From contig OY775912.1 in the NCBI GenBank assembly GCA_963675155.1, positions 296,058 through 360,057 on the forward strand: 64,000 nt of DNA. Direction: 5' to 3'. Under the pieces are notes generated by a model. The model had not been told where the DNA came from. It did not search any database and saw only the letters and a list, made by a program, of their open reading frames with translations. Position 1 is the stretch's first letter. Every line of letters starts with the position of its first letter. This stretch comes from Anaerohalosphaeraceae bacterium. Lineage in GTDB: Bacteria; Planctomycetota; Phycisphaerae; Sedimentisphaerales; Anaerohalosphaeraceae. Position numbers and translations under genes: made by a program. Of the stretch, positions 32,939-62,602 are shown one piece after another.

Positions 32939-32941
32939 ATC

Positions 32942-33092: not shown

Positions 33093-33097
33093 GTAAA

Positions 33098-33169: not shown

Positions 33170-33254
33170 CTTAATGGAAATATAATTTGAATAACCTAAT
33201 TAAGATGGATACAATCTCATAGACAACAATAAAGGAGTTTAAAGGAATACAGCA

Positions 33255-35704: not shown

Positions 35705-35706
35705 CA

Positions 35707-41179: not shown

Positions 41180-44127
41180 TTGTCTGTCCTTGTTGTGGTA
41201 TTAGATTGAATGACCAGTTTGATGTCTTTGGGGACAATAAACCCGTTCGGGGGCTTTCTTGTATATCGAAGTTTCAATAGAGCCTGTCCGTTTGAGGATT
41301 CTTTCAAATCATAGCTGACAGGGCCCCACCATGTCTGAAGATTTTTAACTGAAATACCTGTTTTGAGCCAGTCGGGCGGGATTGCCGCCGCGAGGAAAAG
41401 GGCGTCGCGTTCTTCATAGACCAGCATGTCGCGGATGGCATTAATAAGGCCCGCGCCGACCCATGTATGCGGCATATCACCGATATAACTGGGCGTTCTC
41501 AGGTCGCCGTGCACGACTTCGGCCATGTGATTCCAGCCGGTCGGTCGCACGGCGTCATCAAGAAAATAATCGACCAGCATGATGGCGTCTTCCGGGCGTC
41601 CCATGCGAATCAATGCTGAAATGTTTCGCACTTCATAGGGTGTATAGGTTGAACGGGTTCCGAGCGGTTGTGAAACTCTGTGTCTGCTTTCGCTGACATA
41701 GCGATCATAGCTATTTTTCAGTGCGTCCTGCGGCAATGTATCACGTTCATCCGCCGTCATAATTGCGATGGATGTAGAAGTCGGATCGAAATCGCCTAAT
41801 TCTGCGCAGCCCGGTATTATCTCCAGCTTGTCTCGCTCACGCACCCGTTGGATAGAAGTCAGCAGGGACTGTCTGAAATCATTTTCAAATGAGGCGAGCC
41901 AATTGGCCTCGTCGGTATGTCCCAGACGCAGTGCCAGTGCTTGCGCGTCCTGGATACCTTTGAGGGCAAAAAAATCGTCCCAATAACTGTGTTTCGCGGG
42001 GAAATATCCTTCATGGCTGTTGGATTCCGGCAGAATTCCTTCATAGACCGTTCCCTTGTATTCCTCCGTCAATCGCTGGGTTCGTAGTGCCTCCATATGC
42101 TTCATGGCGGCTTTGACTTTGGGCCAAGAATGTTCTGCGATCGCATCATCATCCGCTAACTCCGTCGCTTGGCGAACCAGGAAAGCATATTGTCCGAATG
42201 AATCGTGCTCGTGCCATGAGCGTGCGAACCAAGCCATTTCGCCGGTGTTGGTCTCAACCAGAAACGGAACGAAGCCATCTTCCTTGATCAGGTCGGTGAA
42301 CCAGTTCAGATAATTTTGTCCCTGCTCAAACAAACCGAACCGCATCATCGCTGTCGCACTGATAGCCCCATCACGAATCCAGGAGCTGTTATAGTTTCTG
42401 GAACCTGGCTGCGTTGCCGGACCGTCGGCGTTGATACATAGATAAGCCAGGTTCGAGCGAACAAGATCCACTAATTTCTGATTCGGTAGATCAATCTGCC
42501 AGTTATCGATCAATGCTGACCAGTTCGAGATCGACTTTTTCATCTCTGTCTGAAAAAGAGATTCCGAATTGGCCGGGATGTCAACATGAGAAGAATCTGT
42601 ATTCGGATAAACAGCTAATAGGGTTTTAGATTGTCCGGGTTCGAGAAAATAATCATAACGCATGCCGGCACAAGCCAGCCCCTCTTGTGATGATATGCTA
42701 TTTGATTGAGTTTTTCGATTGACTAATTGTTCGGTAATATCAATGGCGTCGGCCTCTTGTGTTTGTGCATGCAGTGAGACAAAGTCCGGCTTCGGATACA
42801 GCGATATTGCCTTCACGTCATTGATTGAGAGGGTGTTTTCCTGGGGTGTCCATGCCATTCTTTGTATTGCTGAGAAGCCCCCGTGCTGCCAGGGCGGATT
42901 GATCGGCAAAGGGCGGACTGCAAACAGCAGCGATAGATCAATTTCTTTTAGACTGGTATTTTTGAGCTTGTAGAGAACCACGGTTGTATCCGGCTCAATG
43001 GTATTCGCAGTGATATCAACGGTCAGGTGTTGATTTTTCCACTGTACAGATGGAATGGGCATCCAGCCGTTGACCAGTGTTTGTGTGCAATCGAAGCTTT
43101 TAGCGGAAATCAGTTCGTTATTGATCAACAGTGCCGGAGTCACGCTGAAATTTCGCAAGCCCGATTCCACTTTTCCGTATTCATCCAGTAGTGACTCGTT
43201 GAAGCTTCCGGGTAAGCCGGTAACTGTCCAGAAGGTCTGCTCACGCCGAAGCCAACCGGGGAAAAGCCCGTCTGGCAGACGCTGAGAGAGCATTTCAAAA
43301 TGTCGTTCGGGTGTCCATGACTCAGAGGGCTGTTTAAGCTGAATCTCTGCAATTCGCACAGGTTTGTCCGAACTCGGAAAATTCAGTCGAAGTTTCCGGG
43401 TTGTAATTGTTTTAAAGAAAACATCTTCGATGGCAGAGACACCTTCTTTTTTGTTAACGAGTGTTTCCCACTGGTTATTTTCGGAGAAGTACTGGATCGA
43501 GCAGGGACAGGCATAATCATCCGCCCACTCAATTCTCATGCCGCCGGTTTCAATCGGCTGCGGAGAGATAATTTCGAGTACAGATGTTTCTGAATCGGTC
43601 TTTGCCGGTTGCCAGAACGTTTCTTTCCGGCCGTCCATGACGTGATTGGGTGATGTGCCGTCTGTGCTGCTGGTGGCCTGAACCGTTCGCTGTTTGTCGA
43701 GTCCGAGCAATTCGATTTCCCAAATTGAGTAGCCCCAGCCGGTTCCGCGACGTAAACCCTTTAATCTCAAAGCGTTACACTGTTGCGGTCCGAAATAGAG
43801 TGCATCGATCCCACCGTCGGAGGTTCTGACTTCGCTGAGGGTGGTCCATTGGTTGTCCTCATTCCGGACTTCGATATTGTAATCCCGTCCGTAGGCGGTT
43901 TCCCAGTGAATATTTAAGCCGGCGATAGCTGTTGTCTTCTCAAATTCAATCAGCAGCCATTGGTCATCGGAGAAATTGCTCGACCAGCGGGTGTCCATTT
44001 TTCCATCCATTGCCAAAGCGGGGTCATAACTGCCCTGGCCGGAGCTGGATGAGAGTTTTGCTGCGAAAATCGTCTGTGTTGCGACCCATAAGCAAAGTAG
44101 TGTCTGCAATGATAACCTTGAAATCAC
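41176..44127 (-). CDS. secreted protein with tandem F5/8 type C (discoidin) domains and a C-terminal (alpha/alpha)6 six-hairpin glycosidase domain (GH15/GH63-like W-I-R-D motif)
   Basis: Signal peptide. Discoidin-like LAMDGKMDTRWSS and VMDGRKETFWQP. SWIRDGAISATAMM motif typical of glucoamylase/processing-glucosidase-type barrels. 4-nt overlap with the GH35 gene (operon). Confidence 0.6.
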   Translation of the reverse strand: MISRLSLQTLLCLWVATQTIFAAKLSSSSGQGSYDPALAMDGKMDTRWSSNFSDDQWLLIEFEKTTAIAGLNIHWETAYGRDYNIEVRNEDNQWTTLSEVRTSDGGIDALYFGPQQCNALRLKGLRRGTGWGYSIWEIELLGLDKQRTVQATSSTDGTSPNHVMDGRKETFWQPAKTDSETSVLEIISPQPIETGGMRIEWADDYACPCSIQYFSENNQWETLVNKKEGVSAIEDVFFKTITTRKLRLNFPSSDKPVRIAEIQLKQPSESWTPERHFEMLSQRLPDGLFPGWLRREQTFWTVTGLPGSFNESLLDEYGKVESGLRNFSVTPALLINNELISAKSFDCTQTLVNGWMPIPSVQWKNQHLTVDITANTIEPDTTVVLYKLKNTSLKEIDLSLLFAVRPLPINPPWQHGGFSAIQRMAWTPQENTLSINDVKAISLYPKPDFVSLHAQTQEADAIDITEQLVNRKTQSNSISSQEGLACAGMRYDYFLEPGQSKTLLAVYPNTDSSHVDIPANSESLFQTEMKKSISNWSALIDNWQIDLPNQKLVDLVRSNLAYLCINADGPATQPGSRNYNSSWIRDGAISATAMMRFGLFEQGQNYLNWFTDLIKEDGFVPFLVETNTGEMAWFARSWHEHDSFGQYAFLVRQATELADDDAIAEHSWPKVKAAMKHMEALRTQRLTEEYKGTVYEGILPESNSHEGYFPAKHSYWDDFFALKGIQDAQALALRLGHTDEANWLASFENDFRQSLLTSIQRVRERDKLEIIPGCAELGDFDPTSTSIAIMTADERDTLPQDALKNSYDRYVSESRHRVSQPLGTRSTYTPYEVRNISALIRMGRPEDAIMLVDYFLDDAVRPTGWNHMAEVVHGDLRTPSYIGDMPHTWVGAGLINAIRDMLVYEERDALFLAAAIPPDWLKTGISVKNLQTWWGPVSYDLKESSNGQALLKLRYTRKPPNGFIVPKDIKLVIQSNTTTRTDN

Positions 44128-44154
44128 ATTAATCCCTTTCCTGTTGAAAAAAGT

Positions 44155-44172
44155 AGTAAAAACGTTTTCATG
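44155..44172. promoter_or_regulatory. LacI-family operator-like palindrome (site 1) in the leader of the divergent GH35 operon
   Basis: GTAAAAACGTTTTCATG with perfect core AAAACGTTTT. One of five near-identical sites. Confidence 0.5.
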
Positions 44173-44358
44173 TTTTAGAGTTTCTCATTTCCCCATCTTT
44201 TTGTCAAGAAAAAATATTTATTCAGGTCCGCAATTATCGGTCGCAGGATTTTCAGGACAGAATAAATTTCCATTAAGTCCTTTTTTATAAGACAGATATG
44301 ATTTTTTTAAGAAATTTTCACTCTGCTGTTCTTCCTGCATGACCCTCTCAGAAAAAGC

Positions 44359-44398
44359 TTGACAAAGTGTGAAAATAATGGTAAAAACGTTTTTATGG
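44359..44398 (+). promoter_or_regulatory. sigma-70-like promoter (TTGACA-N17-TAAAAA) with overlapping LacI-family operator palindrome (site 2) upstream of the lacI-family gene
   Basis: TTGACA at 44359-44364, -10 TAAAAA at 44382-44387 embedded in GTAAAAACGTTTTTATGG. Same architecture at 51989..52028. Confidence 0.5.
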
Positions 44399-44457
44399 CA
44401 TATTCGTCTAATAGCAAAGTTGTTTTATGATGCGTTCTATAAAAGGATTTTTGACCA

Positions 44458-45498
44458 ATGTCAATCAAGACAAAAAATGTAACGATTCACAATGTCGCAA
44501 AGGTGGCCGGGGTGTCAATTTCAACGGTTTCCAGGGTTGTTAATAAACTGGGGCGTGTTGCCCCTGAGACCCGGCGTAAGGTTGAATTGGCGATTCAGGA
44601 GTTGGATTTCCATCCCAACATGAGAGCTCAGGCATTGAGTAAAAAGTGTACTGATACGATCGGATTGGTGGTTCCTGATTTTGAAGGCCAATATTTTTCA
44701 ATGCTGATGGAAGGTGCCAACGAAGAAGCTGAACGCAACGGTGTTCACCTGATGGTTCTGAAAGCCAAGGGGTCAGAGTCCAAGGTTGAGGCGATTATTC
44801 GTCTTTGTTCTGGTGGGCGAACGGATGGTTTGATCTTAATGCTGGATGAGCTTTGGGATAATGTGCTGGATGTGGTCGGCAATATTGACAGTCCTTTGGT
44901 GATTCTGGATAAAGATGTCAATTATAAACGCCTGGATAACATTTTAGTGGATAACCGAATGGGGGCGTTTGAAGCCGCTAAGCATTTGATCGATGTGCAT
45001 GATGCAAAGGAGTTATTTTTCATTGGCGGACCTGAAAATAATGTTGACACGACAGACCGCGCGAAAGGCTTTTCAGATGCGTTGACGTTAGCGGGTCTGA
45101 ATGCCAAAGGCCGGCAATATTACGGCCGGACCTATAGCTATGATGAGGGGTATAAGCTTACCAAAGACAGGATTGCGAGAATCATTGAATCAGGACGCCA
45201 GACCGGTATCGTTGCGGCCAATGATGATATTGCCTGTGGAGTGATCGACGCGTTAGAGGACATGGATATTAAAGTTCCTGAACAGGTCGGAGTCATTGGT
45301 TTTGACGATTCGTACATTGCCATCCGGCGGCGACTGAAACTTTCTTCGATGCGTATCCCTATGAAGGAAATTGGAAGCGCGGCGGTCAAGATGGTTTTAA
45401 ACCGGATCGAAGACCGGGAACTGGAACCTTCAAAAGTCATTTTAAAGGCGCGTCTGGTTGTTCGTGAATCATGCGGATGCAACCGCAAGCCTCACTAA
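44458..45498 (+). CDS. LacI-family transcriptional regulator
   Basis: N-terminal HTH VTIHNVAKVAGVSISTVSRVVNK...ETRRKVELAIQELDFHPNMRAQALSKK. Periplasmic-binding-protein-like effector domain. Confidence 0.85.
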   Translation: MSIKTKNVTIHNVAKVAGVSISTVSRVVNKLGRVAPETRRKVELAIQELDFHPNMRAQALSKKCTDTIGLVVPDFEGQYFSMLMEGANEEAERNGVHLMVLKAKGSESKVEAIIRLCSGGRTDGLILMLDELWDNVLDVVGNIDSPLVILDKDVNYKRLDNILVDNRMGAFEAAKHLIDVHDAKELFFIGGPENNVDTTDRAKGFSDALTLAGLNAKGRQYYGRTYSYDEGYKLTKDRIARIIESGRQTGIVAANDDIACGVIDALEDMDIKVPEQVGVIGFDDSYIAIRRRLKLSSMRIPMKEIGSAAVKMVLNRIEDRELEPSKVILKARLVVRESCGCNRKPH

Positions 45499-45553
45499 TC
45501 GCCGGATATTCATCGAAATGAAAGTTTTATTAAACCACAATGGAGGCCCTCTG

Positions 45554-46909
45554 ATGTTTCGAATGGCATTTCATCTCTTCTGGGCAGTTATCATATTCAC
45601 ACAGGCGTGCGGCGTATCTGCAGAAGCAATTTATCCGGAAAGGTTTACGGATGAAGATGCCCAATTGTTGGACGAAATTACTGAAGCCAGCTTTTCATTT
45701 TTCTGGCGTGAAGCGGATGCTGAATCCGGGCTGGTTAAAGACCGGTCCAATCACAATGTTTGCAGTGTTGCCTCATTGGGATTTGGCTTGGCGGCATTGC
45801 CTGTCGGAGTTGAGCGGGGGTATGTGTCCTATGAAGCTGCGAAGGAAAGGGCTTTCAGGGCTTTGCGGACACTGGAACAATCGAATGCACATCACCAAGG
45901 CATGTTTTGCCATTTTATTGACTTGAAAACAGGCCATACAACGCCGATGGGATATGAAAGCATTGCGTCTTCGGTTGATACGGCTTTAATGGTTGCCGGA
46001 GCGATTGTTGCCGGTGAATACTTTGGAGGAGAAGTCAAGCAGTCAGCCGGACGTCTTTTTGCGAGAGTGGATTGGAAGAACTTTGTGAACCCTGCTAATG
46101 GGCAGGTTTATATGGCTTGGGCTGCCGATACGGCGGGACATATGAACGGCACAGGCAAATTCGAGAAACAAACTTGGGATTGGTATACCGATGAAACGCT
46201 TTTGATTGTTTTGCTGGGGCAGGCTTCTCCGGTTTCAGCACATCGTTTGCCGCCGGAGTCGATGACCAATTGGCATCGGCCTCAAGACAGCTATAAGCAG
46301 GGCCAACCGTTTGTTTACTCATTTCCCGGAACGCTGTTTACCTATATGTTTGCCCATTGCTTCTATGATTTCAAGGCGATGGGGCCGGATTGTCAGGGGA
46401 TTGACTGGTTTGAGAATACGCGACGGGCAGTGTTGGCCAACCGCGACTGGTGTCGAGATCATGCGGATGAATATGCCAGCTATGGAGAAAATCTGTGGGG
46501 GATTACCGCCGGCTCCGGTCCCAACGATCGATATGTTGTTCCCGGGCACCAACCATGCGGAGAAAAGACGGACCGACCGGAGTCCGGTACGCTGCATCCG
46601 TATGGAGCGGGTATGTCTGTGCCGTTTGCCCCGGCTGACGCGATCGCATCCCTTCGATATATGCGGACTCTGAAAATCAAGGGGGAAAAACCGGTTTGGC
46701 GATCTGTTGAAGATGGCGGATATGGGTATTGGGACGGTTTTAATGTCGATGAAAATTGGGTTTCAGATCATGTGATTGGAATCGCACAGGGTCCGATGCT
46801 TTTATTGATTGAAAATGCTCGTAGCGGATTGGTTTGGGAATTAATGATGAAGAATAAATGGGTTCGGTCCGGGATTCATAGAGCCGGTTTCAAGTCCATT
46901 CATCACTGA
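45554..46909 (+). CDS. secreted six-hairpin glycosidase-like protein, paralog family B (glucoamylase-like/DUF3131-type; possibly GH144-like beta-1,2-glucanase)
   Basis: Signal peptide MFRMAFHLFWAVIIFTQACG. FSFFWREADAESGLVKDR...ASLGFGLAALPVGVERGY block shared with 54904 and 57975. RBS ggagg. Confidence 0.5.
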   Translation: MFRMAFHLFWAVIIFTQACGVSAEAIYPERFTDEDAQLLDEITEASFSFFWREADAESGLVKDRSNHNVCSVASLGFGLAALPVGVERGYVSYEAAKERAFRALRTLEQSNAHHQGMFCHFIDLKTGHTTPMGYESIASSVDTALMVAGAIVAGEYFGGEVKQSAGRLFARVDWKNFVNPANGQVYMAWAADTAGHMNGTGKFEKQTWDWYTDETLLIVLLGQASPVSAHRLPPESMTNWHRPQDSYKQGQPFVYSFPGTLFTYMFAHCFYDFKAMGPDCQGIDWFENTRRAVLANRDWCRDHADEYASYGENLWGITAGSGPNDRYVVPGHQPCGEKTDRPESGTLHPYGAGMSVPFAPADAIASLRYMRTLKIKGEKPVWRSVEDGGYGYWDGFNVDENWVSDHVIGIAQGPMLLLIENARSGLVWELMMKNKWVRSGIHRAGFKSIHH

Positions 46910-46926
46910 AGTTTTTTTGGATAAAA

Positions 46927-46945
46927 ATGAAAACGTTTTTACTGG
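46927..46945. promoter_or_regulatory. LacI-family operator-like palindrome (site 3) upstream of the phosphorylase-like gene
   Basis: ATGAAAACGTTTTTACTGG; reverse orientation of site 2. Confidence 0.5.
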
Positions 46946-46996
46946 AATTAAAGCAGCAAAACCTGAATGACGGTTTAACACCGGGGATTATGTGAC

Positions 46997-49900
46997 ATGA
47001 AGTTTAAAGAGAGTACACTTATTGAAAAAGACCAGATTCATCGTCTCGGGAACGGGGCGGGATTAGGTTTTGCAATACATAAAAACGGAAGCATTCATCG
47101 TATCCGGCATGAGGCAATTCAGCTTGACCTCTTTGCCGGCTCTCCGTTGGAAGCCGGGTGCAGCAATATTTATTTGCGTATTCGAGGCAAAGAAATCGTT
47201 GCGGTTCCGTTGATAGGGCCCGGTAGTTCCGGTAGCCACTATTTCGGTGAAGACTTTTTTGGCGTTAAGGGCCACTTTGGCGGGATATCATTTTCGTGCC
47301 GGTTATTGCTTGCCGATCAGTCACCTTGCTGGTTTTGGGAGATCCACCTGGTTAATAACAGCTCACAAGCTGTGCAGGCTGATCTCGTTTATGTACAGGA
47401 CGTTGGCTTGATCCCGGCCGAAAGCGGTGAAAATAACGAACTTTATATCAGCCAGTATATTGATTACACCGCATTGGACAGTGAGCGATACGGGCACGTC
47501 GTATGTTGTCGTCAAAATGAACATGTTCCGGGGCGTATTCCCTGGTTAGCGTTAGGATCGTTGGGCTATACAGAAAGTTTCTCGACGGACGGCATGCCTT
47601 TTTTGGGTGCGCAGTACCGGGTAACGGGTGTGCCAAAAGGATTGTCTTCGGCTCATCTTTCGGGACTTTTGCAAAAAGAAACAGCGATTGTTGCGTTACA
47701 GGAAAAACCGTTTAATCTGAAGCCGCAAGAATCCCGGCAGAGTGCTTTTTTCGGTGTTTATTGTGAGCATCATGAGTTGCAGACAGATCTGACTGATCTT
47801 GATTTTATTCATTCACGTGTGGATTCTTTTGATCTTCAGAGTATTGATATCTGGCCTGAGGAATGTGTTGGAAGTGAGCCTGTCCAGAGCCTTTTTTCAC
47901 AAAGTACGCTTTGGTCGGGCGATGATCTGACGGAAGATGATCTGGTGGGTCTTTTCGGCGATGAGAAGCGGCATTGTGAGTTGCTGAATGGTGATCTGCT
48001 TTCATTTTTTTACGGTGAGAATCAACACGTTGTTTTGAGGCGCAAAGAAATTCTGGCTGAACGGCCTCATGGGCATATTATGAAAAGTGGATCTTCGCTT
48101 GTGCCTGCCGATTCCGTAATGAGTTCGACGGCCTATATGTATGGTGTTTTCCACTCGCATGTCTGCCAGGGTAATGTAAACTTCAACCGGTTTTTGACGG
48201 TGAATAAAAGCCCGTTTAATCTGACCCGGCATACAGGTCAACGTATTTTTATTGAATTGGCGGGTTGTTATCACCAATTGGCAGTGCCTTCGGCTTTTGA
48301 AATGAGTTTAAACGGTTGCCGGTGGATCTATAAACGCGATGGACTGCTTTTTGAAGTCATTGCCCGATCGAATCCGGATGATCCGGAAGTGGCACTTCAG
48401 CTTCGTGTCATCAATGGGCCGCAACTTCGATGGCTGATTTCAAATGAACTCGAGCCGGAACATGGTTGGACATTTACGCGGCCATTATTGCCGCTTCAGA
48501 AAGATCAATCGATTCAATTTGTTCCCTCGCAGGAAAGTCAGCTTGCTCAGTTATATCCCGGTGGCACTTTTAAGATGTATTTTGAAAATCCGGAATACGT
48601 TAAGCAAATTGGCGGAGATGAACTTTTATTTTCTGACGGCAAGAGCCGCGGCCTATCTTTCGCTGTTATTACTATTGGCCAAACAAAAGATTTTACGCTC
48701 CGACTGTGCGGGCATCTGGCGAGTGCCGGTGAGACGATGGAATATATCGATCTGGATGCCGGTAAACAATTTTCTATATGGCAGGGAATGAGTTCAGGGC
48801 TTCGGGTGTGCCTGCCGCCGAAGGCCGATTGCCGTGAGATGGATGAAATCGTTGAGATATTACCTTGGTTTGCTCAAAATGCACGGATTCACTATCTCAC
48901 GCCGCATGGTCTTGAACAATACGGCGGGGCTGCTTGGGGGACGCGTGATATTTGTCAGGGGCCGCTGGAGATGCTATTGAGTCTGGGGTATTATCCGCAG
49001 GCCAGGGACATTTTGCGCCGGATTTTTTCAAATCAGAATGCTGATGGTAACTGGCCGCAATGGTGGATGTTTGACCGCTATGATCAAGTGCGATGCTCCG
49101 AAGCCCATGGCGACGTGATTCTCTGGCCGATTCTGGCTTTGAGCGACTACCTGGCGGCTTCGGGAGACTATGAATTTCTTGAAACCGAGCTGCCTTTTTA
49201 TATTGCCGGACAGTCCGGTAATCACGAATCCGTCAGTGTGCTGGACCATGTTCTCAGGTGCTTTGAACATATTGAATTACATCGTTTTACGAACGGTAGT
49301 TCGCTGCTGAACTATAGCGAAGGTGACTGGAACGATGCGATGCAGCCGGCCAATCCAAAACTGAAGGACCGTTTAATCAGCAGTTGGGCGGTGGCTCTGA
49401 GTTTTCAAGCTTTTAAGCGGTTTGCCGTTGCCTGCCGGATGTCGGGGCGAAATGCTTTGGCTGACAAAATTGAGTCACGCTGCGATTGTATTCAGACTGA
49501 CTTTAACAAGCTACTGGTTAGAAATGATGTCGTTGCCGGCTTTGGTTATTTAAATGACTGGCAGGCAATGGACCTGCTGCTTCATCCCTCTGATGGGACA
49601 ACCGGGATTCATTACCGTTTACTTCCGATGATTCGAGGGATTATCAGCGAAATTTTTTCGCCGCAACAGGCTCAATCTCACGCCGATTTGATCGAAAAAT
49701 ATCTCAAAGGGCCGGATGGGGCTCGGCTCATGGATCGTCCGCCTCGGTATCACGGTGGTGTACAGCAGTTCTTTAAACGTGCCGAAAGCAGTCCGTATTT
49801 TGGCCGTGAAATTGGGTTGATGTATACCCATGCTCATTTGCGATATGCCGAAGCTATGGCCAAGTTGGGACGCTCTGAAGAATTCGTCAAGGCGCTTCGT

Positions 49901-50398
49901 CAAATTATTCCGATTCGAATCCAGGATATAATCCCGCAAGCCTCCGTTCGCCAATCTAATTGCTATTATAGCAGTTCTGATGCGGAGATTAGAAATCGAT
50001 ACGAAGTGGATGAGCGTTACGAGGAGATCCAATCGGGGAAAGTGACGTTAAACGGCGGGTGGAGAATTTACTCCAGTGGGCCGGGGATTGTGGTTCGGTT
50101 GATTGTATCGCATTTATTTGGGATACGGCACGCGTTCGGGAAAACAATATTCGATCCGGTTCTACCGCGACGGTTCAATGGATTGACAGCTCAGATGGAG
50201 TTCTGCAGTCATCCTGTAACCGTGGAATATAAGATTGGTAAGAAACAGCAGGGTGTGACGGGTGTTGTGATCAATGGCAATGAATGCCCATTTGATCGCG
50301 AGGCGAATCCGTATCGTCCGGGCGGAGCGATGGTAGAAGATGCCGCAATACGGGCTTTACTGGAGCGGCGGGGCAATCGGATTAAGATTACTCTTTAA
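46997..50398 (+). CDS. large cytoplasmic (alpha/alpha)6-barrel glycoside phosphorylase/hydrolase-like protein (GH94-like size and organisation; GH149/GH161 are alternatives)
   Basis: 1133 aa, no signal peptide. Helical barrel region (GNWPQWWMFDRYD...HGDVILWPILALSDYLAASGDYEFL). Sits between a LacI regulator and a sugar symporter. Confidence 0.45.
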   Translation: MKFKESTLIEKDQIHRLGNGAGLGFAIHKNGSIHRIRHEAIQLDLFAGSPLEAGCSNIYLRIRGKEIVAVPLIGPGSSGSHYFGEDFFGVKGHFGGISFSCRLLLADQSPCWFWEIHLVNNSSQAVQADLVYVQDVGLIPAESGENNELYISQYIDYTALDSERYGHVVCCRQNEHVPGRIPWLALGSLGYTESFSTDGMPFLGAQYRVTGVPKGLSSAHLSGLLQKETAIVALQEKPFNLKPQESRQSAFFGVYCEHHELQTDLTDLDFIHSRVDSFDLQSIDIWPEECVGSEPVQSLFSQSTLWSGDDLTEDDLVGLFGDEKRHCELLNGDLLSFFYGENQHVVLRRKEILAERPHGHIMKSGSSLVPADSVMSSTAYMYGVFHSHVCQGNVNFNRFLTVNKSPFNLTRHTGQRIFIELAGCYHQLAVPSAFEMSLNGCRWIYKRDGLLFEVIARSNPDDPEVALQLRVINGPQLRWLISNELEPEHGWTFTRPLLPLQKDQSIQFVPSQESQLAQLYPGGTFKMYFENPEYVKQIGGDELLFSDGKSRGLSFAVITIGQTKDFTLRLCGHLASAGETMEYIDLDAGKQFSIWQGMSSGLRVCLPPKADCREMDEIVEILPWFAQNARIHYLTPHGLEQYGGAAWGTRDICQGPLEMLLSLGYYPQARDILRRIFSNQNADGNWPQWWMFDRYDQVRCSEAHGDVILWPILALSDYLAASGDYEFLETELPFYIAGQSGNHESVSVLDHVLRCFEHIELHRFTNGSSLLNYSEGDWNDAMQPANPKLKDRLISSWAVALSFQAFKRFAVACRMSGRNALADKIESRCDCIQTDFNKLLVRNDVVAGFGYLNDWQAMDLLLHPSDGTTGIHYRLLPMIRGIISEIFSPQQAQSHADLIEKYLKGPDGARLMDRPPRYHGGVQQFFKRAESSPYFGREIGLMYTHAHLRYAEAMAKLGRSEEFVKALRQIIPIRIQDIIPQASVRQSNCYYSSSDAEIRNRYEVDERYEEIQSGKVTLNGGWRIYSSGPGIVVRLIVSHLFGIRHAFGKTIFDPVLPRRFNGLTAQMEFCSHPVTVEYKIGKKQQGVTGVVINGNECPFDREANPYRPGGAMVEDAAIRALLERRGNRIKITL

Positions 50399-50449
50399 TA
50401 AAGGTTTAAACGGCAGTCTAAGGAACAGAAATTAGATAATCGAGGCAGC

Positions 50450-51850
50450 ATGGACACAAAAAATCATCATTTGACTTCGAAGGAAGACAAGATACCCGTT
50501 CGTCAAAAAGTTGGATATGCCATGGGAGCAATGGCGACCAATGTTGCGATTAATTCGATCGCTAATCTGACGACCCTGATTTACAACATTGGCCTTGGAG
50601 TCAGTCCCGTCATGATCGGTATTGCGCAGGGAATCCCCCGGCTTTGGGATGCGATTAGCGATCCGCTTATCGGTAATTTTTCAGACAATACACGAAGCCG
50701 ATACGGCCGCAGGATTCCATATATTTTCGTGGGCAGCATTGCGATGGGGATTACCTTTTGGCTGTTTTGGATGGCTCCACGCGGTTGGGATGAGCGTGCG
50801 ACGTTTGGCTATCTGGTCGTGGTGTCGTTGTTGTTTTATACGGCATACACATTGATGGAGGTTCCACGCGGGGCACTTGGTTACGAGATGACAAACGATT
50901 ACCACGAGCGTACAAGGATTTTTGCGTACTGCAGTTTCTTTGTCAATGTGGGATCTCTGACGATTCCATGGCTTTATTTTTTGGCCAATCTTAAGATTTT
51001 TGGTGATGAAGTGAATGGAATGAGATATGTCGGCCTTGGTTTAGCGTGTTTTCTTGTAGTTTCCGGCATGGTCTGCGCGATTGTGTGTAAAGAGGAAAAG
51101 TTACAGCAAGCACGAAAACAGGAAAAAATTAAGTTCTGGGACAGCATTGTTATTACCTTTAGGAATAAAACTTTTTTGTGGCTGCTGGCCGTTGTTTTTC
51201 TTGTGACAATAGGGTTTTACTTCGTCTCCGGTTTCACCAACTACATTATGATTTATTTTGTTTACGCCGGTGACAAGGCCGCCGCTTCGGTCATGATGGG
51301 CTGGTGTGGAACGTTGTGGTCGACGCTTTCTTTGGTCGGCGTATTTGCGATGACGTGGATCGCCACCCGACTGGGAAAATCAAAAACGGTCATGATCTTT
51401 CTGGTCGTGATGGCTTTGGGTAATCTGCTTAAAATCGTGTGCTATAACCCCGATCGTCCCTGGCTTGTGTTGATCCCGACGGCGTCGCTTTCGATGGGCA
51501 TGCTTGTGTTGTTTTCCTTAATCTATTCGATGATGGCGGATATTTGTGACGAAGATGAATTAAATACCGGCAAGAGAAGGGAAGGCAGTTATCAGGCGAT
51601 CTATGGGCTTTTATGGAAACTTGGAATCGGGCTGGCTTACTTTGCGGCCGGCGCTTTGCTGGAGAGTACCGGTTTTGATGAAGACCTTGTGACACAGGAG
51701 GCTTCGACACTGTTTTGGCTTCGATTCTGGGATATTGCATTGCCGTCTTTTGTCTGTCTTTTGGGGGCCTCCCTGTTGGTCAAATACCCACTGACGGAAG
51801 AACGCGCATATGAAATAAAGATAATTCTTGAAGAAAGAAGGAAAAACTGA
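50450..51850 (+). CDS. MFS transporter of the glycoside-pentoside-hexuronide (GPH):cation symporter family
   Basis: GPH signature DAISDPLIGNFSDNTRSRYGRRIPY. 12 predicted TM segments. Confidence 0.8.
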   Translation: MDTKNHHLTSKEDKIPVRQKVGYAMGAMATNVAINSIANLTTLIYNIGLGVSPVMIGIAQGIPRLWDAISDPLIGNFSDNTRSRYGRRIPYIFVGSIAMGITFWLFWMAPRGWDERATFGYLVVVSLLFYTAYTLMEVPRGALGYEMTNDYHERTRIFAYCSFFVNVGSLTIPWLYFLANLKIFGDEVNGMRYVGLGLACFLVVSGMVCAIVCKEEKLQQARKQEKIKFWDSIVITFRNKTFLWLLAVVFLVTIGFYFVSGFTNYIMIYFVYAGDKAAASVMMGWCGTLWSTLSLVGVFAMTWIATRLGKSKTVMIFLVVMALGNLLKIVCYNPDRPWLVLIPTASLSMGMLVLFSLIYSMMADICDEDELNTGKRREGSYQAIYGLLWKLGIGLAYFAAGALLESTGFDEDLVTQEASTLFWLRFWDIALPSFVCLLGASLLVKYPLTEERAYEIKIILEERRKN

Positions 51851-51865
51851 CGATAACGTATTATA

Positions 51866-51880
51866 GTAAAAACGTTTTCC
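51866..51880. promoter_or_regulatory. LacI-family operator-like palindrome (site 4) just downstream of the MFS gene
   Basis: GTAAAAACGTTTTCC. Confidence 0.4.
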
Positions 51881-51988
51881 TCTTTCGCGGCGTTTTTTAT
51901 TGAAATCTGAAGAATTCATAAAGCTATTTTTTGAATAGGCTTACGGGTATTTCGGTCGATTTGTGCAGTAACTGTAGGGATTTTATTC

Positions 51989-52028
51989 TTGACTTGTATT
52001 CGCAAAAAGAGTAAAAACGTTTTCATGG
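51989..52028 (+). promoter_or_regulatory. sigma-70-like promoter (TTGACT-N17-TAAAAA) with overlapping LacI-family operator palindrome (site 5) upstream of 52155..52787
   Basis: TTGACT at 51989-51994, GTAAAAACGTTTTCATGG at 52011-52028. Near-duplicate of the 44359..44398 module. Confidence 0.5.
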
Positions 52029-52154
52029 CAACGTCAGATAATGCGAGTGATTAAACATTGGCTTTGGACTCATGAGTTCTCGGTAGATCCGGGATTGAAC
52101 GATTGTTGAATGTATTCAAGGAAATGTAAATTAGGAATGTTAGGAGGATTGACG

Positions 52155-52787
52155 ATGAAAAAGAATGTGATGGTATTGGTATTGATCGGGTGTTTGGTGT
52201 CAAATGTCCAGGCGAATCTATTGCTCAATGGCGGCTTTGAAGATGGCGACTTGGGTCAATTGGGTTCGGTGACGATTAACAACTGGATAACATGGGGTGA
52301 CAGCGGTTGGCACCATAATGATGCCGGTTTCAAGTTTGATGAAAAGGGTATTAAGCTCTGGCATGATTCGACGGGTGTGTATCAGGATTTCGATGTAGTT
52401 GTTGGGACTGAATATACGGTTGGTCTCAGTGCAATTACCGCCGGCAGCGATGCCCTGAAAGGCTGGGATGGTGTGGTTAAAATCGAATGGACAGATGCCT
52501 CGTGGATAAATGTAGGCGGAAGTGAAGTGGGTCGGTTTTATGGAGCGAAAGATGACAAGGGTATTGCCGGTGATGCCAGTGACACATGGAAAGAGATTTC
52601 CGGGGCGGCAGTTGCTCCGGCCGGCGCTGTTCACGGCCGACTGGTATATTATCTGGAGCAGGCGGACAATTGGGAATCCACAACCGGCGGCAGCCTTTAC
52701 TGGGATAATGCTTTTGTGACCCCCGAGCCTGCGACCCTTATTTTGTTGGGACTTGGCAGTGTCGTATTAGGCAGATGCAAAAAATAA
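52155..52787 (+). CDS. PEP-CTERM-anchored CBM-like (CBM4/9-type jelly-roll) protein
   Basis: Signal peptide MKKNVMVLVLIGCLVSNVQA. NGGFEDGDLGQ...W motif. Ends TPEPATLILLGLGSVVLGRCKK* (PEP-CTERM). Confidence 0.65.
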   Translation: MKKNVMVLVLIGCLVSNVQANLLLNGGFEDGDLGQLGSVTINNWITWGDSGWHHNDAGFKFDEKGIKLWHDSTGVYQDFDVVVGTEYTVGLSAITAGSDALKGWDGVVKIEWTDASWINVGGSEVGRFYGAKDDKGIAGDASDTWKEISGAAVAPAGAVHGRLVYYLEQADNWESTTGGSLYWDNAFVTPEPATLILLGLGSVVLGRCKK

Positions 52788-52811
52788 ATGGTTTATGAAA
52801 GGACGTGCGTT

Positions 52812-54788
52812 ATGAGAAAAATAGTAGTCGTAATTGTTGCTTTGGCATGCTTAGCTTCGGGCAGCGCATCTGCAAACATTCTCTATAATGACGGTTTTGA
52901 AGAGGGTGACTTAGGACAGTTCAGTTCGGTTGACATTCCCGGCTGGGTTGCATATGGCAGCAGCGGCTGGCATCATGAAGACGGCGGTGCCCACTTTGAT
53001 GCCAAGGCTATCAAGGAATGGTCGGATGACACCGGGATTTTCCAGGATTTCGATGTTATTGTCGGTATGGAATATGATTTCAGCGTCTATGCGATCAGTC
53101 TTGATTCGGATGCCGGCGGTCTTCACGGCTGGGATGCGGTTTTCAAGGTTGAATGGCTGGACAGTGATTATGTTCTTATTCGTGCAGATGAAATTGGACG
53201 TTACTATGGCATTAAAGACGCCGGTTCTTCCGGACAGGCGGGCGATCCTTTGAACACATGGAAGTTTCTGTCAGGTACAAAGACGGCTCCATATCCGGCG
53301 GCTGTTGGCAGGGTGGTACTGCATTTGACGGATGGAGACAGCGGATATACGGCCAAAAGCGGTTCGATTAACTGGGATAACGTAACTGTTGCAGTCCCTT
53401 ATAGCGCCGAAAATCCCACTCCGCCTAACTATGCAAACAATCTTGTGCCTTCTGAGGTTACGGCTCTGTACTGGGATCGGCCCGAACCGCGTCAGGCGGG
53501 AAATACCGTTTTGTGCGATGTCTGGTTCGGCATCGATCCCAATGTGCCGGGTAACAATACGTTGATTCTTGATCATCAAGATGCCGATTCGGTTTCGATT
53601 GGACCGTTGGATTCCGATCAGGATTACTATTGGCGAGTGGATTGCTATGATCCGAATGGCATGACGTATATTAAAACCCAAGGAGTTGTCTGGACATTTA
53701 ACACGGGCAACATTGCTCCTGTGGCCGATGCGGGTGATAAGCAAAAAGTCTGGCTTGAGTCAGGAGCAGCGTCCGTGTCTCTGGACGGTACAGCTTCAGA
53801 TGACGGCCAGCCGGACCCTCCCGGACAATTGTCGTATACATGGACGGTGATTGACGGTCCTGCCAATGTGGTTTATACACCTAGCAACCAGGTTGAGGAC
53901 CCGACTGTTATGTTTACAACGGCGGGTGACTATGTCTTTGAGTTGTTTGTCAGTGACGGTTTAGCGGATGCCAATGATGTGGTTACGGTTCAGGTGTATC
54001 CCGAAGGTTATACCGGCTTAATTGCACATTGGACATTGGACGAAACGAGCGGCACGACGGCGGCTGACAGCATTGGCGGCCATGATGGTACGCTGGTTGG
54101 CGATGCAGCCTGGACTTCGGAAGGTAAGGTCAATGGTGCGATTCTTCTGGACGGTGACGGCGATTACATTAACTGCGGCGGCGGAACGGATGCAAACACG
54201 CTTTCCTGGGCGGATCTCACCGAAGAAATGACGGTTGCTGCCTGGATGAAGGGTACGTTTGATAAGTCGTGGCAGGCGATTGTCAACAAAGGCGATTCCA
54301 GTTGGAGGCTCTTTAGAGATTGCGTGAACGGCGATTCGGATAACGCCAGCTTTACTTGCAGTAATATTGGTGCAGTTGCATCCGGAAATACCGGCAGTGT
54401 GAATGATAACAAATGGCATCAGGTTGTCGGGACTTATGACGGTGTTTATCTGAGCATCTATGTGGATGGCCTTTTGGCTGTGTCACAACGGCATGATCAG
54501 GGCACCATTGCCGTGAATGATTATAATGTGTTCATCGGCGGAGATGATCAGTTTCCGGGTCAGCGTGACTTCACTGGGTTGATCGACGAAGTTCGAATTT
54601 ATGAAATCGGGCTCTCGGCTGATCAGGTTTTGGATTTGTTTATCGCCGATGGCGGGCAAAACAGTTGCGGACTGGACACGATCGTTGGTGATGTCAACGG
54701 CGACTGTTATGTGGATATTTCCGATTTGTCCGATATGGCCGCCAACTGGCTGCAATGCAATGACATCGCAAATGCAACGTGCCAGTAG
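52812..54788 (+). CDS. secreted multi-domain protein: CBM-like N-domain (paralog of 52155) + Ig/PKD-like domains + LamG/concanavalin-A-like domain + dockerin-like C-terminus
   Basis: Signal peptide MRKIVVVIVALACLASGSASA. YNDGFEEGDLGQ. LamG-like (NKWHQVVGTYDGVYLSIYVDGLL...DEVRIYE). C-terminal GDVNGDCYVDISDLSDMAANWLQC. Confidence 0.6.
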   Translation: MRKIVVVIVALACLASGSASANILYNDGFEEGDLGQFSSVDIPGWVAYGSSGWHHEDGGAHFDAKAIKEWSDDTGIFQDFDVIVGMEYDFSVYAISLDSDAGGLHGWDAVFKVEWLDSDYVLIRADEIGRYYGIKDAGSSGQAGDPLNTWKFLSGTKTAPYPAAVGRVVLHLTDGDSGYTAKSGSINWDNVTVAVPYSAENPTPPNYANNLVPSEVTALYWDRPEPRQAGNTVLCDVWFGIDPNVPGNNTLILDHQDADSVSIGPLDSDQDYYWRVDCYDPNGMTYIKTQGVVWTFNTGNIAPVADAGDKQKVWLESGAASVSLDGTASDDGQPDPPGQLSYTWTVIDGPANVVYTPSNQVEDPTVMFTTAGDYVFELFVSDGLADANDVVTVQVYPEGYTGLIAHWTLDETSGTTAADSIGGHDGTLVGDAAWTSEGKVNGAILLDGDGDYINCGGGTDANTLSWADLTEEMTVAAWMKGTFDKSWQAIVNKGDSSWRLFRDCVNGDSDNASFTCSNIGAVASGNTGSVNDNKWHQVVGTYDGVYLSIYVDGLLAVSQRHDQGTIAVNDYNVFIGGDDQFPGQRDFTGLIDEVRIYEIGLSADQVLDLFIADGGQNSCGLDTIVGDVNGDCYVDISDLSDMAANWLQCNDIANATCQ

Positions 54789-57042: not shown

Positions 57043-57083
57043 GGATAAAAGTCGGAGTTTCTAAAATGGATAGGGGAAATGAG

Positions 57084-57914: not shown

Positions 57915-57974
57915 AGTGACAATCCAGACTGTTCAATGATCATAGTTTTCTTATAAGGGGATGGGGACTCCGTT

Positions 57975-60742: not shown

Positions 60743-62602
<1,860 letters not shown>

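What the first reader, a model, noticed from the sequence alone, without database searches (positions are those of the whole stretch)
44155..52028. Five near-identical AAAACGTTTT palindromes mark a LacI-family regulon spanning GH35/GH15-like, family-B glycosidase, phosphorylase, MFS and PEP-CTERM CBM genes
GTAAAAACGTTTT(C/T)ATGG occurs at 44156, 44381, 46927 (inverted), 51866 and 52011, always in intergenic leaders. Two copies are embedded in identical TTGAC(A/T)-N17-TAAAAA promoter modules so that the operator overlaps the -10, a classic repression geometry. LacI-family operators are palindromes with a central CG. The only LacI-family gene here (44458..45498) is itself preceded by one site, implying autoregulation.
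Basis: partly seen in the sequence, partly recalled or inferred. Interest (0 to 1): 0.55.

Follow-up and report, generated by a model that had tools for sequence, protein, structure and literature searches.

The report
Repressor binding sites, beta-1,2-glucan genes
Five copies of a 16-base palindrome sit on the promoters of a gene cluster for eating beta-1,2-glucan in a Phycisphaerae (Planctomycetota) bacterium, and are almost certainly the binding sites of the LacI-type repressor encoded beside them: a well-supported but ordinary example of a very common kind of sugar-gene switch.

Summary
AAAACGTTTT occurs exactly five times in 64 kb (0.18 expected), all inside 7.9 kb and all between genes. 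The full site is a 16-mer, GTAAAAACGTTTTCAT, generalised across relatives to RTRAAARCGYTTTYAY.

In 11 syntenic loci whose LacI orthologue is 58-97% identical, the motif recurs in the divergent lacI intergenic region. There, the operators and the two TTGAC(A/T) -35 boxes are the only conserved islands. In total 29 strong sites were found in 267 kb. All lie in the cluster, and 24-26 are intergenic.

Sites 2 and 5 overlap a TTGAC(A/T)-N17-TAAAAA promoter. Site 1 covers about +1 to +16 of the divergent promoter.

The genes are a beta-1,2-glucan utilisation system:
- a 1,2-beta-oligoglucan phosphorylase (5H3Z homologue);
- GH144 endo-beta-1,2-glucanases;
- a GH35 beta-1,2-glucosyltransferase homologue (7VKW);
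- an MFS importer and surface proteins.

The recognition helix is nearly that of CcpA, and the site fits the cre consensus. The likely mechanism is promoter occlusion relieved by a beta-1,2-gluco-oligosaccharide, which is inferred. The roles of sites 3 and 4 are unresolved.

This is a new member of a known kind. No binding or expression experiment exists, and the whole genome could not be scanned.

The parts
44156..44171 (.). Operator site 1 (GTAAAAACGTTTTCAT). It covers about +1 to +16 of the divergent, minus-strand promoter and lies 29-44 nt upstream of GTG 44127.
   Evidence: Conserved in all 11 orthologous loci.
44381..44396 (.). Operator site 2 (GTAAAAACGTTTTTAT). It overlaps the -10 and the start site of the lacI promoter, 62-77 nt upstream of the lacI ATG.
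   Evidence: The position is conserved in all orthologues. The centre is degenerate (AGGC) in L084-L087 and L091.
46927..46942 (.). Operator site 3 (ATGAAAACGTTTTTAC on the + strand), 55-70 nt upstream of the SOGP ATG and just after a TAAAAA(T) -10-like hexamer. It is either an internal promoter or a roadblock; this is unresolved.
   Evidence: Conserved in L081 and L082. The equivalent site lies inside SOGP codons about 10-15 in L086 and L091.
51866..51881 (.). Operator-like site 4 (GTAAAAACGTTTTCCT), 16 nt after the MFS stop and 145 bp upstream of site 5. Its role is unknown; it may be an auxiliary operator.
   Evidence: Conserved only in L081 and L082. There is no terminator fold.
52011..52026 (.). 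Operator site 5 (GTAAAAACGTTTTCAT). It overlaps the -10 and the start site of the promoter of the PEP-CTERM/LamG/GH144-PA14 gene string.
   Evidence: Conserved with its -35 box in L081 and L082.
44359..44387 (+). Predicted lacI promoter: -35 TTGACA (44359-44364), 17-nt spacer, -10 TAAAAA (44382-44387).
   Evidence: The same architecture is present in all 11 orthologous loci.
44179..44207 (-). Predicted divergent promoter: -35 TTGACA (44207-44202), 17-nt spacer, -10 GAAACT (44184-44179). The operator starts 7 nt downstream.
   Evidence: The -35 box is invariant (GTCAAG column block) in both alignments. In the 8 loci that share this spacing, a -10 of the form nAnnnT follows at 17 nt.
51989..52017 (+). 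Predicted promoter of the PEP-CTERM operon: -35 TTGACT, 17-nt spacer, -10 TAAAAA.
44458..45498 (+). LacI-family regulator, 346 aa, with an HTH_LacI domain and a periplasmic-binding-protein-like sugar domain. It is the only LacI-family gene in the window.
45458..46909 (+). GH144 endo-beta-1,2-glucanase homologue with a signal peptide. The ORF opens at 45458. The likely start is ATG 45554, 56 nt after the lacI stop, as called in L081.
   Evidence: (8XUL, 5GZH).
46997..50398 (+). 1,2-beta-oligoglucan phosphorylase (SOGP, GH94), cytoplasmic.
   Evidence: SOGP_N, SOGP_2nd, GH94, SOGP_4th. (5H3Z, E 2.6e-196).
50450..51850 (+). MFS_2 (glycoside-pentoside-hexuronide type) transporter, the presumed oligosaccharide importer.
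41176..44127 (-). Secreted protein with two CBM32/F5-8C domains and an uncharacterised beta-supersandwich + (alpha/alpha)6 domain of about 700 aa. It is the first gene of the divergent operon.
38723..41179 (-). GH35 protein, a close homologue of the Ignavibacterium beta-1,2-glucosyltransferase.
   Evidence: (7VKW, E 4.6e-157).
36921..38705 (-). GH144-like/DUF3131 protein with a signal peptide. It is the last gene of the divergent operon.
   Evidence: Syntenic in L081, L082, L084, L085 and L091.
52110..52787 (+). PEP-CTERM-anchored putative glycan-binding protein. The likely start is ATG 52155, which follows an AGGAGG.
52788..54788 (+). Protein with the same N-terminal domain as the PEP-CTERM protein, plus PKD and LamG domains.
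54904..60545 (+). GH144+PA14 (54904-57042), prepilin-type N-methyl protein (57027-57914) and a second GH144+PA14 (57975-60545). They are probably co-transcribed from the site-5 promoter; that is inferred.
   Evidence: The GH144-PA14 + N_methyl pair is syntenic in L084-L087 and L091.

Best explanation
The five palindromes are operators of the LacI-family repressor encoded at 44458-45498. A dimer binds each 16-bp site (RTRAAARCGYTTTYAY). Each helix-turn-helix reads one half-site, and the hinge helices (conserved Leu60) insert at the central CG.

Without inducer the repressor occludes three sigma-70-type promoters:
- its own promoter, driving lacI-GH144 and probably SOGP-MFS, where site 2 lies over the -10 and start site;
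- the divergent promoter of the CBM32-(alpha/alpha)6 / GH35 glucosyltransferase / GH144-like operon, where site 1 covers +1 to +16;
- the promoter of the surface-protein and GH144-PA14 string, where site 5 lies over the -10 and start site.

Site 3, before SOGP, acts as a second control point, either at a weak internal promoter or as a roadblock. Site 4 may be an auxiliary site.

A beta-1,2-gluco-oligosaccharide imported by the MFS transporter most likely binds the sugar domain and releases the repressor. Sophorose, or a slightly longer chain, is the best candidate. Release switches on secreted endo-beta-1,2-glucanases, uptake and cytoplasmic phosphorolysis.

Shown here: the sites, their conservation, their promoter geometry, and the gene functions by homology.

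Inferred: that this LacI binds them, that it represses, and the identity of the inducer.
For: **Non-random, clustered, intergenic sites.**

**Phylogenetic footprint.**
- Every one of 11 syntenic orthologous loci (LacI 58-97% identical; Phycisphaerae/Planctomycetota MAGs) carries the motif in the lacI divergent intergenic region.
- In alignments of that region, only the operators and the two -35 boxes are conserved.
- Internal sites appear only where an intergenic gap exists. The compact operons of L084 and L085 have none.
- Of 29 sites scoring at least 19 bits in 267 kb, all lie within the cluster. 24 are intergenic under a crude ORF model in which only 6% of the DNA is intergenic (P about 4e-25). 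Two more are intergenic by the deposited gene calls.

**Wider conservation.** A rearranged locus with a 48%-identical LacI (L089) has two TGAAAACGTTTTCA sites at its operon promoter. A related metagenomic locus (L092) has two in a divergent spacer.

**Regulator features.** Pfam finds the LacI HTH and the sugar-binding domains. The recognition helix VSISTVSRVVN is invariant in orthologues and almost identical to that of CcpA (VSMATVSRVVN). The CcpA cre consensus TGWAANCGNTNWCA (PMC5263246) matches the symmetric form of the site.

**Same helix, same motif type.** Unrelated LacI paralogues picked by the same recognition-helix pattern often carry the same type of palindrome at their own gene ends. 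By my count, that is 16 of 28 hits.

**Agreement with LacI-family norms (PMC4052901).** Sites are even palindromes with a central CG. They mostly lie 30-140 nt upstream of the start codon. 72% of regulators are autoregulated, and about 90% are local sugar regulators.

**Promoter overlap.**

**Pathway coherence.**
Against: - There is no experimental evidence of any kind.
- The source genome (a 4.9-Mb contig) could not be scanned. Sites elsewhere in it, and paralogous LacI proteins with the same recognition helix, cannot be excluded.
- The motif type is generic for this helix, so assigning the sites to the neighbouring gene rests on co-localisation and co-conservation.
- The proposed -10 hexamer TAAAAA lacks the usual T at its last position. 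The consensus promoter scan therefore does not call these promoters, and it finds no excess of promoter-like sites in the region.
- In L084-L087 and L091 the lacI-proximal site has GG instead of the central CG, so autoregulation there is uncertain.
- Three strong sites lie inside SOGP coding sequence: L086 and L091 near codons 10-15, and L001 about 1.8 kb into the gene.
- Site 4 has no obvious promoter.
- L090 (LacI 44% identical) shows no site.
Confidence: 0.8

Rival explanations
1. The sites are real LacI-family operators, but they are read mainly by a different regulator. That regulator would be a paralogue or a CcpA-like global catabolite regulator encoded elsewhere in the genome. The neighbouring LacI would recognise something else, or would share the sites.
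For: The site fits the cre consensus, and the closest solved homologue is CcpA. LacI proteins of other phyla with the same recognition helix have the same palindrome type, so cross-recognition is plausible. The rest of the genome was not available.
Against: No site occurs at the other carbohydrate-active-enzyme genes of the window (GH16, GH30, GH16-CBM6, GH2), or in about 150 kb of flanks of orthologous loci that hold GH5, GH28, GH30, GH43 and sulfatase genes. The motif travels with the LacI orthologue even when the operon is rearranged (L089).
Confidence: 0.1
2. The conserved 16-mer is chiefly a core promoter element, an unusual -10/discriminator recognised by RNA polymerase, and not a repressor site.
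For: In sites 2 and 5 the left arm is the only plausible -10 hexamer, 17 nt from a perfect -35. In five orthologues the lacI-proximal element keeps both arms but loses the central CG.
Against: Site 1 lies downstream of its own separate -10 in 8 loci. Site 3 has no conserved -35. The element is a dyad used in both orientations relative to transcription. Conservation spans 16 nt with two-fold symmetry, which polymerase contacts do not require. Equivalent sites occur inside coding sequence.
Confidence: 0.04
3. The LacI protein binds these sites but activates rather than represses, or needs a co-repressor rather than an inducer, as PurR and CcpA do.
For: A few LacI-family members bind DNA only with a ligand (PMC4052901). 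The HTH resembles that of CcpA.
Against: Sites overlapping the -10 and start site, or lying at +1 to +16, are repression geometry. Local catabolic LacI regulators are overwhelmingly inducer-released repressors (PMC4052901).
Confidence: 0.04
4. The copies are a short dispersed repeat or a chance cluster with no regulatory meaning.
For: None beyond the AT-richness of the spacers.
Against: Only 0.18 copies are expected by chance. The flanks of the copies are unrelated. Position-specific conservation extends to 58% regulator identity while the surrounding spacer has diverged. The sites are absent from the flanking DNA.
Confidence: 0.01

Closest known systems
CcpA and its cre sites (Bacillus and other Firmicutes)
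   Same: It is the closest solved homologue (2O20, 1ZVV, 1RZR; E about 1e-43). The recognition helix is nearly identical (VSISTVSRVVN against VSMATVSRVVN) and the hinge-helix Leu is conserved. The symmetric form of the site, TGAAAACGTTTTCA, fits the cre consensus TGWAANCGNTNWCA (PMC5263246).
   Different: Overall identity is only about 30%. The sites are confined to one gene cluster rather than spread over many catabolic operons. The regulator gene sits within its own regulon. No evidence for an HPr-Ser-P co-repressor was sought. The phylum is different (Planctomycetota).
Lin1838, the LacI-family gene in the Listeria innocua 1,2-beta-oligoglucan phosphorylase cluster
   Same: It is a LacI-family gene adjacent to an SOGP gene and a transporter, and it is proposed to regulate the cluster (PMC3960220).
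   Different: That proposal is a one-sentence speculation with no operator defined. The Listeria cluster uses an ABC transporter and a GH3 beta-glucosidase. Here the cluster uses an MFS transporter, GH144 endoglucanases and a GH35 glucosyltransferase homologue. Orthology of the two regulators was not tested.
Local LacI-family regulons reconstructed by comparative genomics (RegPrecise; Ravcheev et al. 2014, PMC4052901), for example ThuR (AAAnCGnTTT core)
   Same: The motif is an even palindrome with a central CG. The regulator gene is divergently transcribed from a target operon. The gene is autoregulated, the sites lie 30-140 nt upstream of start codons, and the targets are sugar-catabolic genes.
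   Different: The word Planctomycetes does not occur in that paper's main text, and I found no regulog for beta-1,2-glucan use. This locus has five sites over three to four transcription units, which is more than the typical one or two.
E. coli lac operon with O1, O2 and O3
   Same: There are several operators per locus, including a promoter-proximal one. In relatives there are sites inside the first structural gene (L086, L091) and deep in a gene (L001), recalling O2 in lacZ.
   Different: The protein has no C-terminal tetramerisation helix; it ends ...RESCGCNRKPH at 346 aa. Operator spacings (225-258 and 144-155 bp) are not kept in helical phase among relatives, so looping is not supported.

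Membership tests
LacI/GalR family transcription factor | N-terminal LacI-type helix-turn-helix (PF00356) | tested here: met
   PF00356, residues 9-54, 63.7 bits against a cut-off of 27.
LacI/GalR family transcription factor | C-terminal periplasmic-binding-protein-like effector domain | tested here: met
   PF13377, PF00532 and PF13407 are all above their cut-offs. The protein aligns full length to CcpA and PurR structures.
LacI/GalR family transcription factor | Hinge helix with a Leu that inserts at the central base step | tested here: met
   PNMRAQALSKK aligns with CcpA PNAVARGLASK. A59, L60 and S61 are nearly invariant in orthologues. That the Leu inserts at the CG is established knowledge, not tested here.
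LacI/GalR family operator | Even-length palindrome (16-22 nt) with a central CG | tested here: met
   The site is a 16-nt dyad, RTRAAARCGYTTTYAY. The criterion comes from PMC4052901.
LacI/GalR family operator | Located in upstream regions, typically 30-140 nt before a start codon, and conserved upstream of orthologous genes | tested here: met
   Sites 1, 2 and 3 lie at -29/-44, -62/-77 and -55/-70. Site 5 lies at -129/-144 from ATG 52155. Site 4 is outside the range. Conservation is shown.
LacI/GalR family operator | Bound specifically by the cognate regulator and released by an effector | not testable with these tools
   Needs EMSA or footprinting with purified protein and beta-1,2-gluco-oligosaccharides.
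CcpA-type global catabolite control (cre regulon) | Sites distributed over many unrelated catabolic operons | tested here: not met
   No site of 19 bits or more lies outside the beta-1,2-glucan cluster, in the 64-kb window or in about 200 kb of orthologous loci that carry other CAZyme genes. The whole genome was not available.
CcpA-type global catabolite control (cre regulon) | HPr-Ser46-P / Crh co-repressor dependence | not tested
   The HPr-contact residues and the presence of HPr kinase in the genome were not examined.
Beta-1,2-glucan utilisation gene cluster (SOGP/SGL type) | 1,2-beta-oligoglucan phosphorylase (GH94, SOGP architecture) | tested here: met
   SOGP_N, SOGP_2nd, GH94 and SOGP_4th domains. 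5H3Z at E 2.6e-196 over the full length.
Beta-1,2-glucan utilisation gene cluster (SOGP/SGL type) | Endo-beta-1,2-glucanase (GH144) and further beta-1,2-specific enzymes | tested here: met
   Four proteins match PF10091, and a fifth is a weaker GH144-like/DUF3131 match. 5GZH and 8XUL are the homologues. The GH35 protein matches beta-1,2-glucosyltransferase 7VKW at E 4.6e-157. Enzyme activities were not tested.
Beta-1,2-glucan utilisation gene cluster (SOGP/SGL type) | Dedicated oligosaccharide transporter and a sophorose-cleaving beta-glucosidase | tested here: inconclusive
   An MFS_2 transporter is present in place of the ABC system of Listeria. No GH3 or GH1 beta-glucosidase is in the window. 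The GH2 protein (60620-62602) and the unknown (alpha/alpha)6 protein are candidates.

The most novel reading that the evidence does not exclude
The operator defines a Phycisphaerae-type beta-1,2-glucan utilisation system whose co-regulated members include components with no characterised counterpart:
- a widespread CBM32-fused beta-supersandwich/(alpha/alpha)6 enzyme that belongs to no known glycoside hydrolase family by sequence;
- PEP-CTERM-anchored lectin-like proteins;
- a pseudopilin-like (N-methyl) protein conserved next to the GH144-PA14 glucanases.

If these act together, they would form a new outer-surface capture-and-degradation apparatus for beta-1,2-glucan in Planctomycetota. It would be controlled by the first defined LacI regulon of that phylum, with a beta-1,2-gluco-oligosaccharide as inducer.
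Probability: 0.25. Interest if true: 0.5.

Novelty: new member of a known kind. Interest (0 to 1): 0.3.

Why it matters
Beta-1,2-glucans, including the cyclic glucans of Proteobacteria, are widespread, but their degradation has been worked out only since 2014. I found no defined regulator, operator or inducer for any SOGP or GH144 cluster in the open-access literature held here.

Gene regulation in Planctomycetota, especially the anaerobic Phycisphaerae known mostly from MAGs, is almost unexplored.

A conserved operator with clear sigma-70-like promoter architecture provides three things:
- a ready-made PWM for mapping the regulon in these genomes;
- testable promoter models (-35 TTGACA, 17-nt spacer, A-rich -10);
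- guilt-by-association evidence linking several uncharacterised proteins to beta-1,2-glucan metabolism.

It does not change any concept of how LacI-family repressors work.

Tried and rejected
1. **Genome-contig scan with the LacI alignment.** The back-translated patterns were too generic, so 79 of 80 loci were unrelated LacI paralogues. They were poor negative controls, because several carry the same palindrome type at their own lacI genes. That result became supporting evidence for the helix-to-motif link.
2. **Metagenome-contig scan for CTTGAC-N17-GTAAAAACGTTTT.** It returned 13 hits. Only L092 is a related locus, and the rest look unrelated. It gave no extension of the regulon.
3. **Retrieving the source genome record.** This failed, so no genome-wide scan was possible.
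4. **DNA looping between paired sites.** Spacings of 225, 225, 227, 231 and 258 bp, and of 145, 144 and 155 bp, are not phase-conserved, and the protein has no tetramerisation tail. Not supported.
5. **Site 4 as part of an intrinsic terminator.** Folding is no better than for shuffled sequence (z = +0.85). Rejected.
6. **Consensus promoter scan.** It finds no enrichment and misses the proposed promoters, because it requires T at the last -10 position. The promoters rest on conservation instead.
7. **Rfam scan.** It found no RNA family in the region.
8. **L090 (LacI 44% identical).** It has no site of 12 bits or more. This marks the limit of the regulog, or the sites lie outside the fetched DNA.
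9. **The weak hit at 57091 (15.9 bits).** It is produced by the KKGFT codons of the prepilin N-terminus and has no central CG. It is not counted as a site.

Full report
**Observation**

The decamer AAAACGTTTT occurs exactly five times in the 64-kb window, at 44159, 44384, 46930, 51869 and 52014. Shuffles predict 0.18 copies. Extended to 16 nt, GTAAAAACGTTTTCAT matches with at most one mismatch at 44156(+), 44381(+), 46927(-), 51866(+) and 52011(+). Nothing else in the window comes within two mismatches.

All five copies lie between ORFs. The shared unit is only 16-22 nt long and its flanks are unrelated, so the copies are not pieces of a longer dispersed repeat.

The pattern TTGAC(A/T)-N17-TAAAAA occurs exactly twice in the window, against 0.10 expected. 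Both copies are at operator sites, with the -10 hexamer forming the left arm of the palindrome. The window contains a single LacI-family gene.

**What the genes are**

Pfam and solved-structure searches identify a beta-1,2-glucan utilisation locus.

| Coordinates | Strand | Gene product | Evidence |
|---|---|---|---|
| 44458-45498 | + | LacI-family regulator | |
| probably 45554-46909 | + | secreted GH144 endo-beta-1,2-glucanase homologue | 5GZH, 8XUL; |
| 46997-50398 | + | four-domain GH94 1,2-beta-oligoglucan phosphorylase | 5H3Z, E 2.6e-196; |
| 50450-51850 | + | MFS_2 transporter | |
| 41176-44127 | - | secreted protein, two CBM32 domains plus an unknown 700-aa domain | |
| 38723-41179 | - | GH35 protein, homologue of beta-1,2-glucosyltransferase | 7VKW, E 4.6e-157; |
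| 36921-38705 | - | GH144-like/DUF3131 protein | |

Downstream of site 5 come these genes:
- a PEP-CTERM protein;
- a paralogous PKD/LamG protein;
- two GH144+PA14 proteins that flank a prepilin-type gene;
- a GH2 gene.

The unknown 700-aa domain has no sequence homologue in the PDB, even when searched with a profile. It models confidently (pLDDT 91) as a beta-supersandwich plus an (alpha/alpha)6 barrel. The closest structures are GH94 phosphorylases, GH15 glucoamylase, GH116 and GH63, at 10-13% identity. 'GH15-like' is therefore correct only at fold level.

The organism is a Phycisphaerae-type planctomycete. This follows from the source names on homologues. The window's own proteins are recorded on a 4.9-Mb contig.

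**Comparative test**

The LacI protein has a ladder of orthologues from 97% down to about 44% identity. I retrieved 11 syntenic loci (L001, L081-L088, L091). In all of them lacI is followed by GH144, and by SOGP and MFS in all but L087, and is transcribed divergently from the CBM32 protein (from GH35 in L088).

A PWM built only from the five window sites finds the motif in the divergent spacer of every one of these loci. Examples are GTAAAAGCGTTTTCAC in L084, ATAAAAACGTTTTTAC in L085 and GTAAAAGCGTTTTCAT in L087. The generalised site is RTRAAARCGYTTTYAY.

Alignments of the spacers show that sequence has otherwise diverged. The conserved islands are exactly four: operator 1, the GTCAAG block (the -35 of the minus-strand promoter), the TTGACA -35 of the lacI promoter, and operator 2.

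Sites before SOGP or after MFS exist only in genomes that have an intergenic gap there. In the compact operons of L084 and L085 a single divergent-region site remains.

Over 267 kb, all 29 sites scoring at least 19 bits lie inside the cluster. Under a crude ORF model in which 6% of the DNA is intergenic, 24 of them are intergenic (P about 4e-25). Two further sites are intergenic according to the deposited gene calls.

Two other observations agree:
- The other glycan-degrading genes of the window (GH16, GH30, GH16-CBM6) sit next to ECF sigma/anti-sigma pairs and carry no site.
- A differently arranged cluster with a 48%-identical LacI (L089: ABC transporter, GH94, lacI, GH2, GH144) has two TGAAAACGTTTTCA sites at its promoter region. 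A metagenomic relative (L092) has two in a divergent spacer.

**Promoter geometry**

*lacI promoter.* Upstream of lacI, every orthologue has (C/A)TTGACA, a 17-nt spacer, then TAAAAA. That hexamer is the left arm of site 2. Site 2 therefore spans roughly -13 to +3.

*Site 5.* The same architecture holds at site 5 and is conserved in L081 and L082.

*Divergent promoter.* On the minus strand, a conserved cTTGAC(A/T) is followed after 17 nt by a hexamer of the form nAnnnT. The hexamers seen are GAAACT, CATAGT, AAAATT, CATTAT, GATGAT and GAGAAT. Site 1 follows 5-8 nt later, covering about +1 to +16. In L085, L086 and L091 the operator instead starts 8 nt after the -35 box.

These are classic occlusion geometries. 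One caveat applies. TAAAAA lacks the usual terminal T, so the generic promoter scanner does not call these promoters, and it finds no enrichment of promoter-like sites in the region. The promoter models rest on conservation, not on a scanner.

**The regulator**

The HTH recognition helix VSISTVSRVVN is invariant among orthologues. It differs at two positions from that of CcpA, the closest solved homologue. The hinge-helix Leu is conserved.

The symmetric form of the site, TGAAAACGTTTTCA, fits the cre consensus TGWAANCGNTNWCA (PMC5263246).

LacI paralogues from other phyla, fetched through the same helix pattern, frequently carry the same type of palindrome at their own gene ends. This supports the helix-to-motif link. 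It also means the motif type is not unique to this protein.

All features agree with the family-wide survey of Ravcheev et al. (PMC4052901):
- even palindromes with a central CG;
- sites mostly 30-140 nt upstream of start codons;
- 72% of regulators autoregulated;
- about 90% of regulators local to a sugar pathway.

**Mechanism**

The best-supported model is a local, autoregulated repressor. It occludes three promoters and is released by an imported beta-1,2-gluco-oligosaccharide. I put confidence in the operator-repressor assignment at about 0.8, and at about 0.5-0.6 for the inducer class.

**Unresolved points**

- *Site 3.* It has a TAAAAA(T) immediately upstream but no conserved -35. In L086 and L091 its equivalent lies within SOGP codons about 10-15 (GKNVFT).
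- *L001.* It has a perfect site 1.8 kb inside SOGP (codons DENVFT).
- *Site 4.* It sits 16 nt after the MFS stop, is conserved only in the two closest relatives, and is not a terminator.
- *lacI-proximal site.* In five orthologues it is invariantly GTAAAAAGGCTTTCAT/C, with GG in place of CG. It may be a deliberately weak autoregulatory operator, or mainly a promoter element.
- *Looping.* It is not supported, because the spacings are not phase-conserved.

**Comparison and novelty**

This works like, and passes the testable membership criteria of, a LacI/GalR-family local regulon. It resembles CcpA/cre in helix and site, but it fails the 'global distribution' criterion in the DNA available.

The only published link I found between a LacI gene and an SOGP cluster is a speculative sentence about Lin1838 in Listeria innocua (PMC3960220). 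No operator or inducer for any beta-1,2-glucan system turned up.

It is therefore a new member of a known kind. It is a neat, well-supported regulon prediction in an under-studied phylum and pathway, but it is not conceptually surprising. Interest is 0.3.

Noticed in passing
window 41176-44127 (-), C-terminal about 700 aa: The domain is highly conserved and uncharacterised, and is fused to two CBM32 modules. It has no PDB sequence homologue even by profile. The AF2 model (pLDDT 91) is a beta-supersandwich plus an (alpha/alpha)6 barrel, nearest to GH94, GH15, GH116 and GH63 at 10-13% identity. The family is widespread at 35-40% identity in Omnitrophota, Elusimicrobiota, Hydrogenedentota and Lentisphaerota. 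It is a candidate new glycoside hydrolase family tied to beta-1,2-glucan by co-regulation.
   Followed up: partly
window 29057-36938: This is an rtc locus with an embedded tRNA array. The order of genes is:
- RtcR (-);
- a 178-aa ORF containing a partial tRNA-like Rfam hit at 31005-31067 that ARAGORN does not call;
- a Band-7 protein;
- seven tightly packed tRNAs at 32619-33170 (Gln, Pro, His, Gly, Glu, Leu, Phe; the tRNA-Leu is only 74 nt long);
- RtcA and RtcB;
- a 190-aa ORF;
- a PrfH-like RF-1-domain protein.
   Followed up: no
L086 12426-12441, L091 12418-12433, L001 14026-14041: Perfect operator matches lie inside SOGP coding sequence, always in the frame xAA-AAC-GTT-TTx (K/E-N-V-F). In L086 and L091 they lie near the 5' end of SOGP, close to where site 3 sits upstream of the start codon in the window. 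In L001 the site is 1.8 kb into the gene. They could be functional intragenic operators or coincidence.
   Followed up: partly
L084-L087 and L091, about 46 nt upstream of lacI (e.g. L085 9952-9967): An invariant 18-nt element, TTGTAAAAAGGCTTT(C/T)A, replaces the canonical lacI-proximal operator. Both arms are kept, but the central CG is changed to GG. These same loci carry an AraC/XylR-type gene after the MFS gene.
   Followed up: partly
window 57027-57914; L084-L087, L089-L091: A prepilin-type N-methylation-motif protein is conserved next to GH144+PA14 glucanase genes across the orthologous clusters. This suggests a pseudopilin-like component of the glycan-degrading apparatus.
   Followed up: no
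window 5329-7541 and 24195-26466, with 9259-21522: Two ECF sigma factor/FecR-like anti-sigma pairs flank GH16-CBM32, GH30, GH16-CBM6 and pectate-lyase-fold genes and giant CotH/LTD proteins (524-3892, 10617-15434). Glycan loci in this genome appear to use at least two different regulatory logics.
   Followed up: no
window 44145-44150, 44370-44375; L081, L082, L083, L088 lacI promoters: A TGAAAA or GTAAAA half-site-like hexamer lies about 11 nt upstream of sites 1 and 2, with an A-rich equivalent at site 5. It recurs in several orthologous lacI promoters. It could be an auxiliary half-site or only promoter-spacer composition.
   Followed up: no
window 44127 vs 43998: The deposited call for the CBM32 protein is 940 aa (P0121). 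It starts at Met44 and so removes the signal peptide. The GTG at 44127 (983 aa) matches the orthologue lengths of 971-991 aa and restores a signal peptide.
   Followed up: partly
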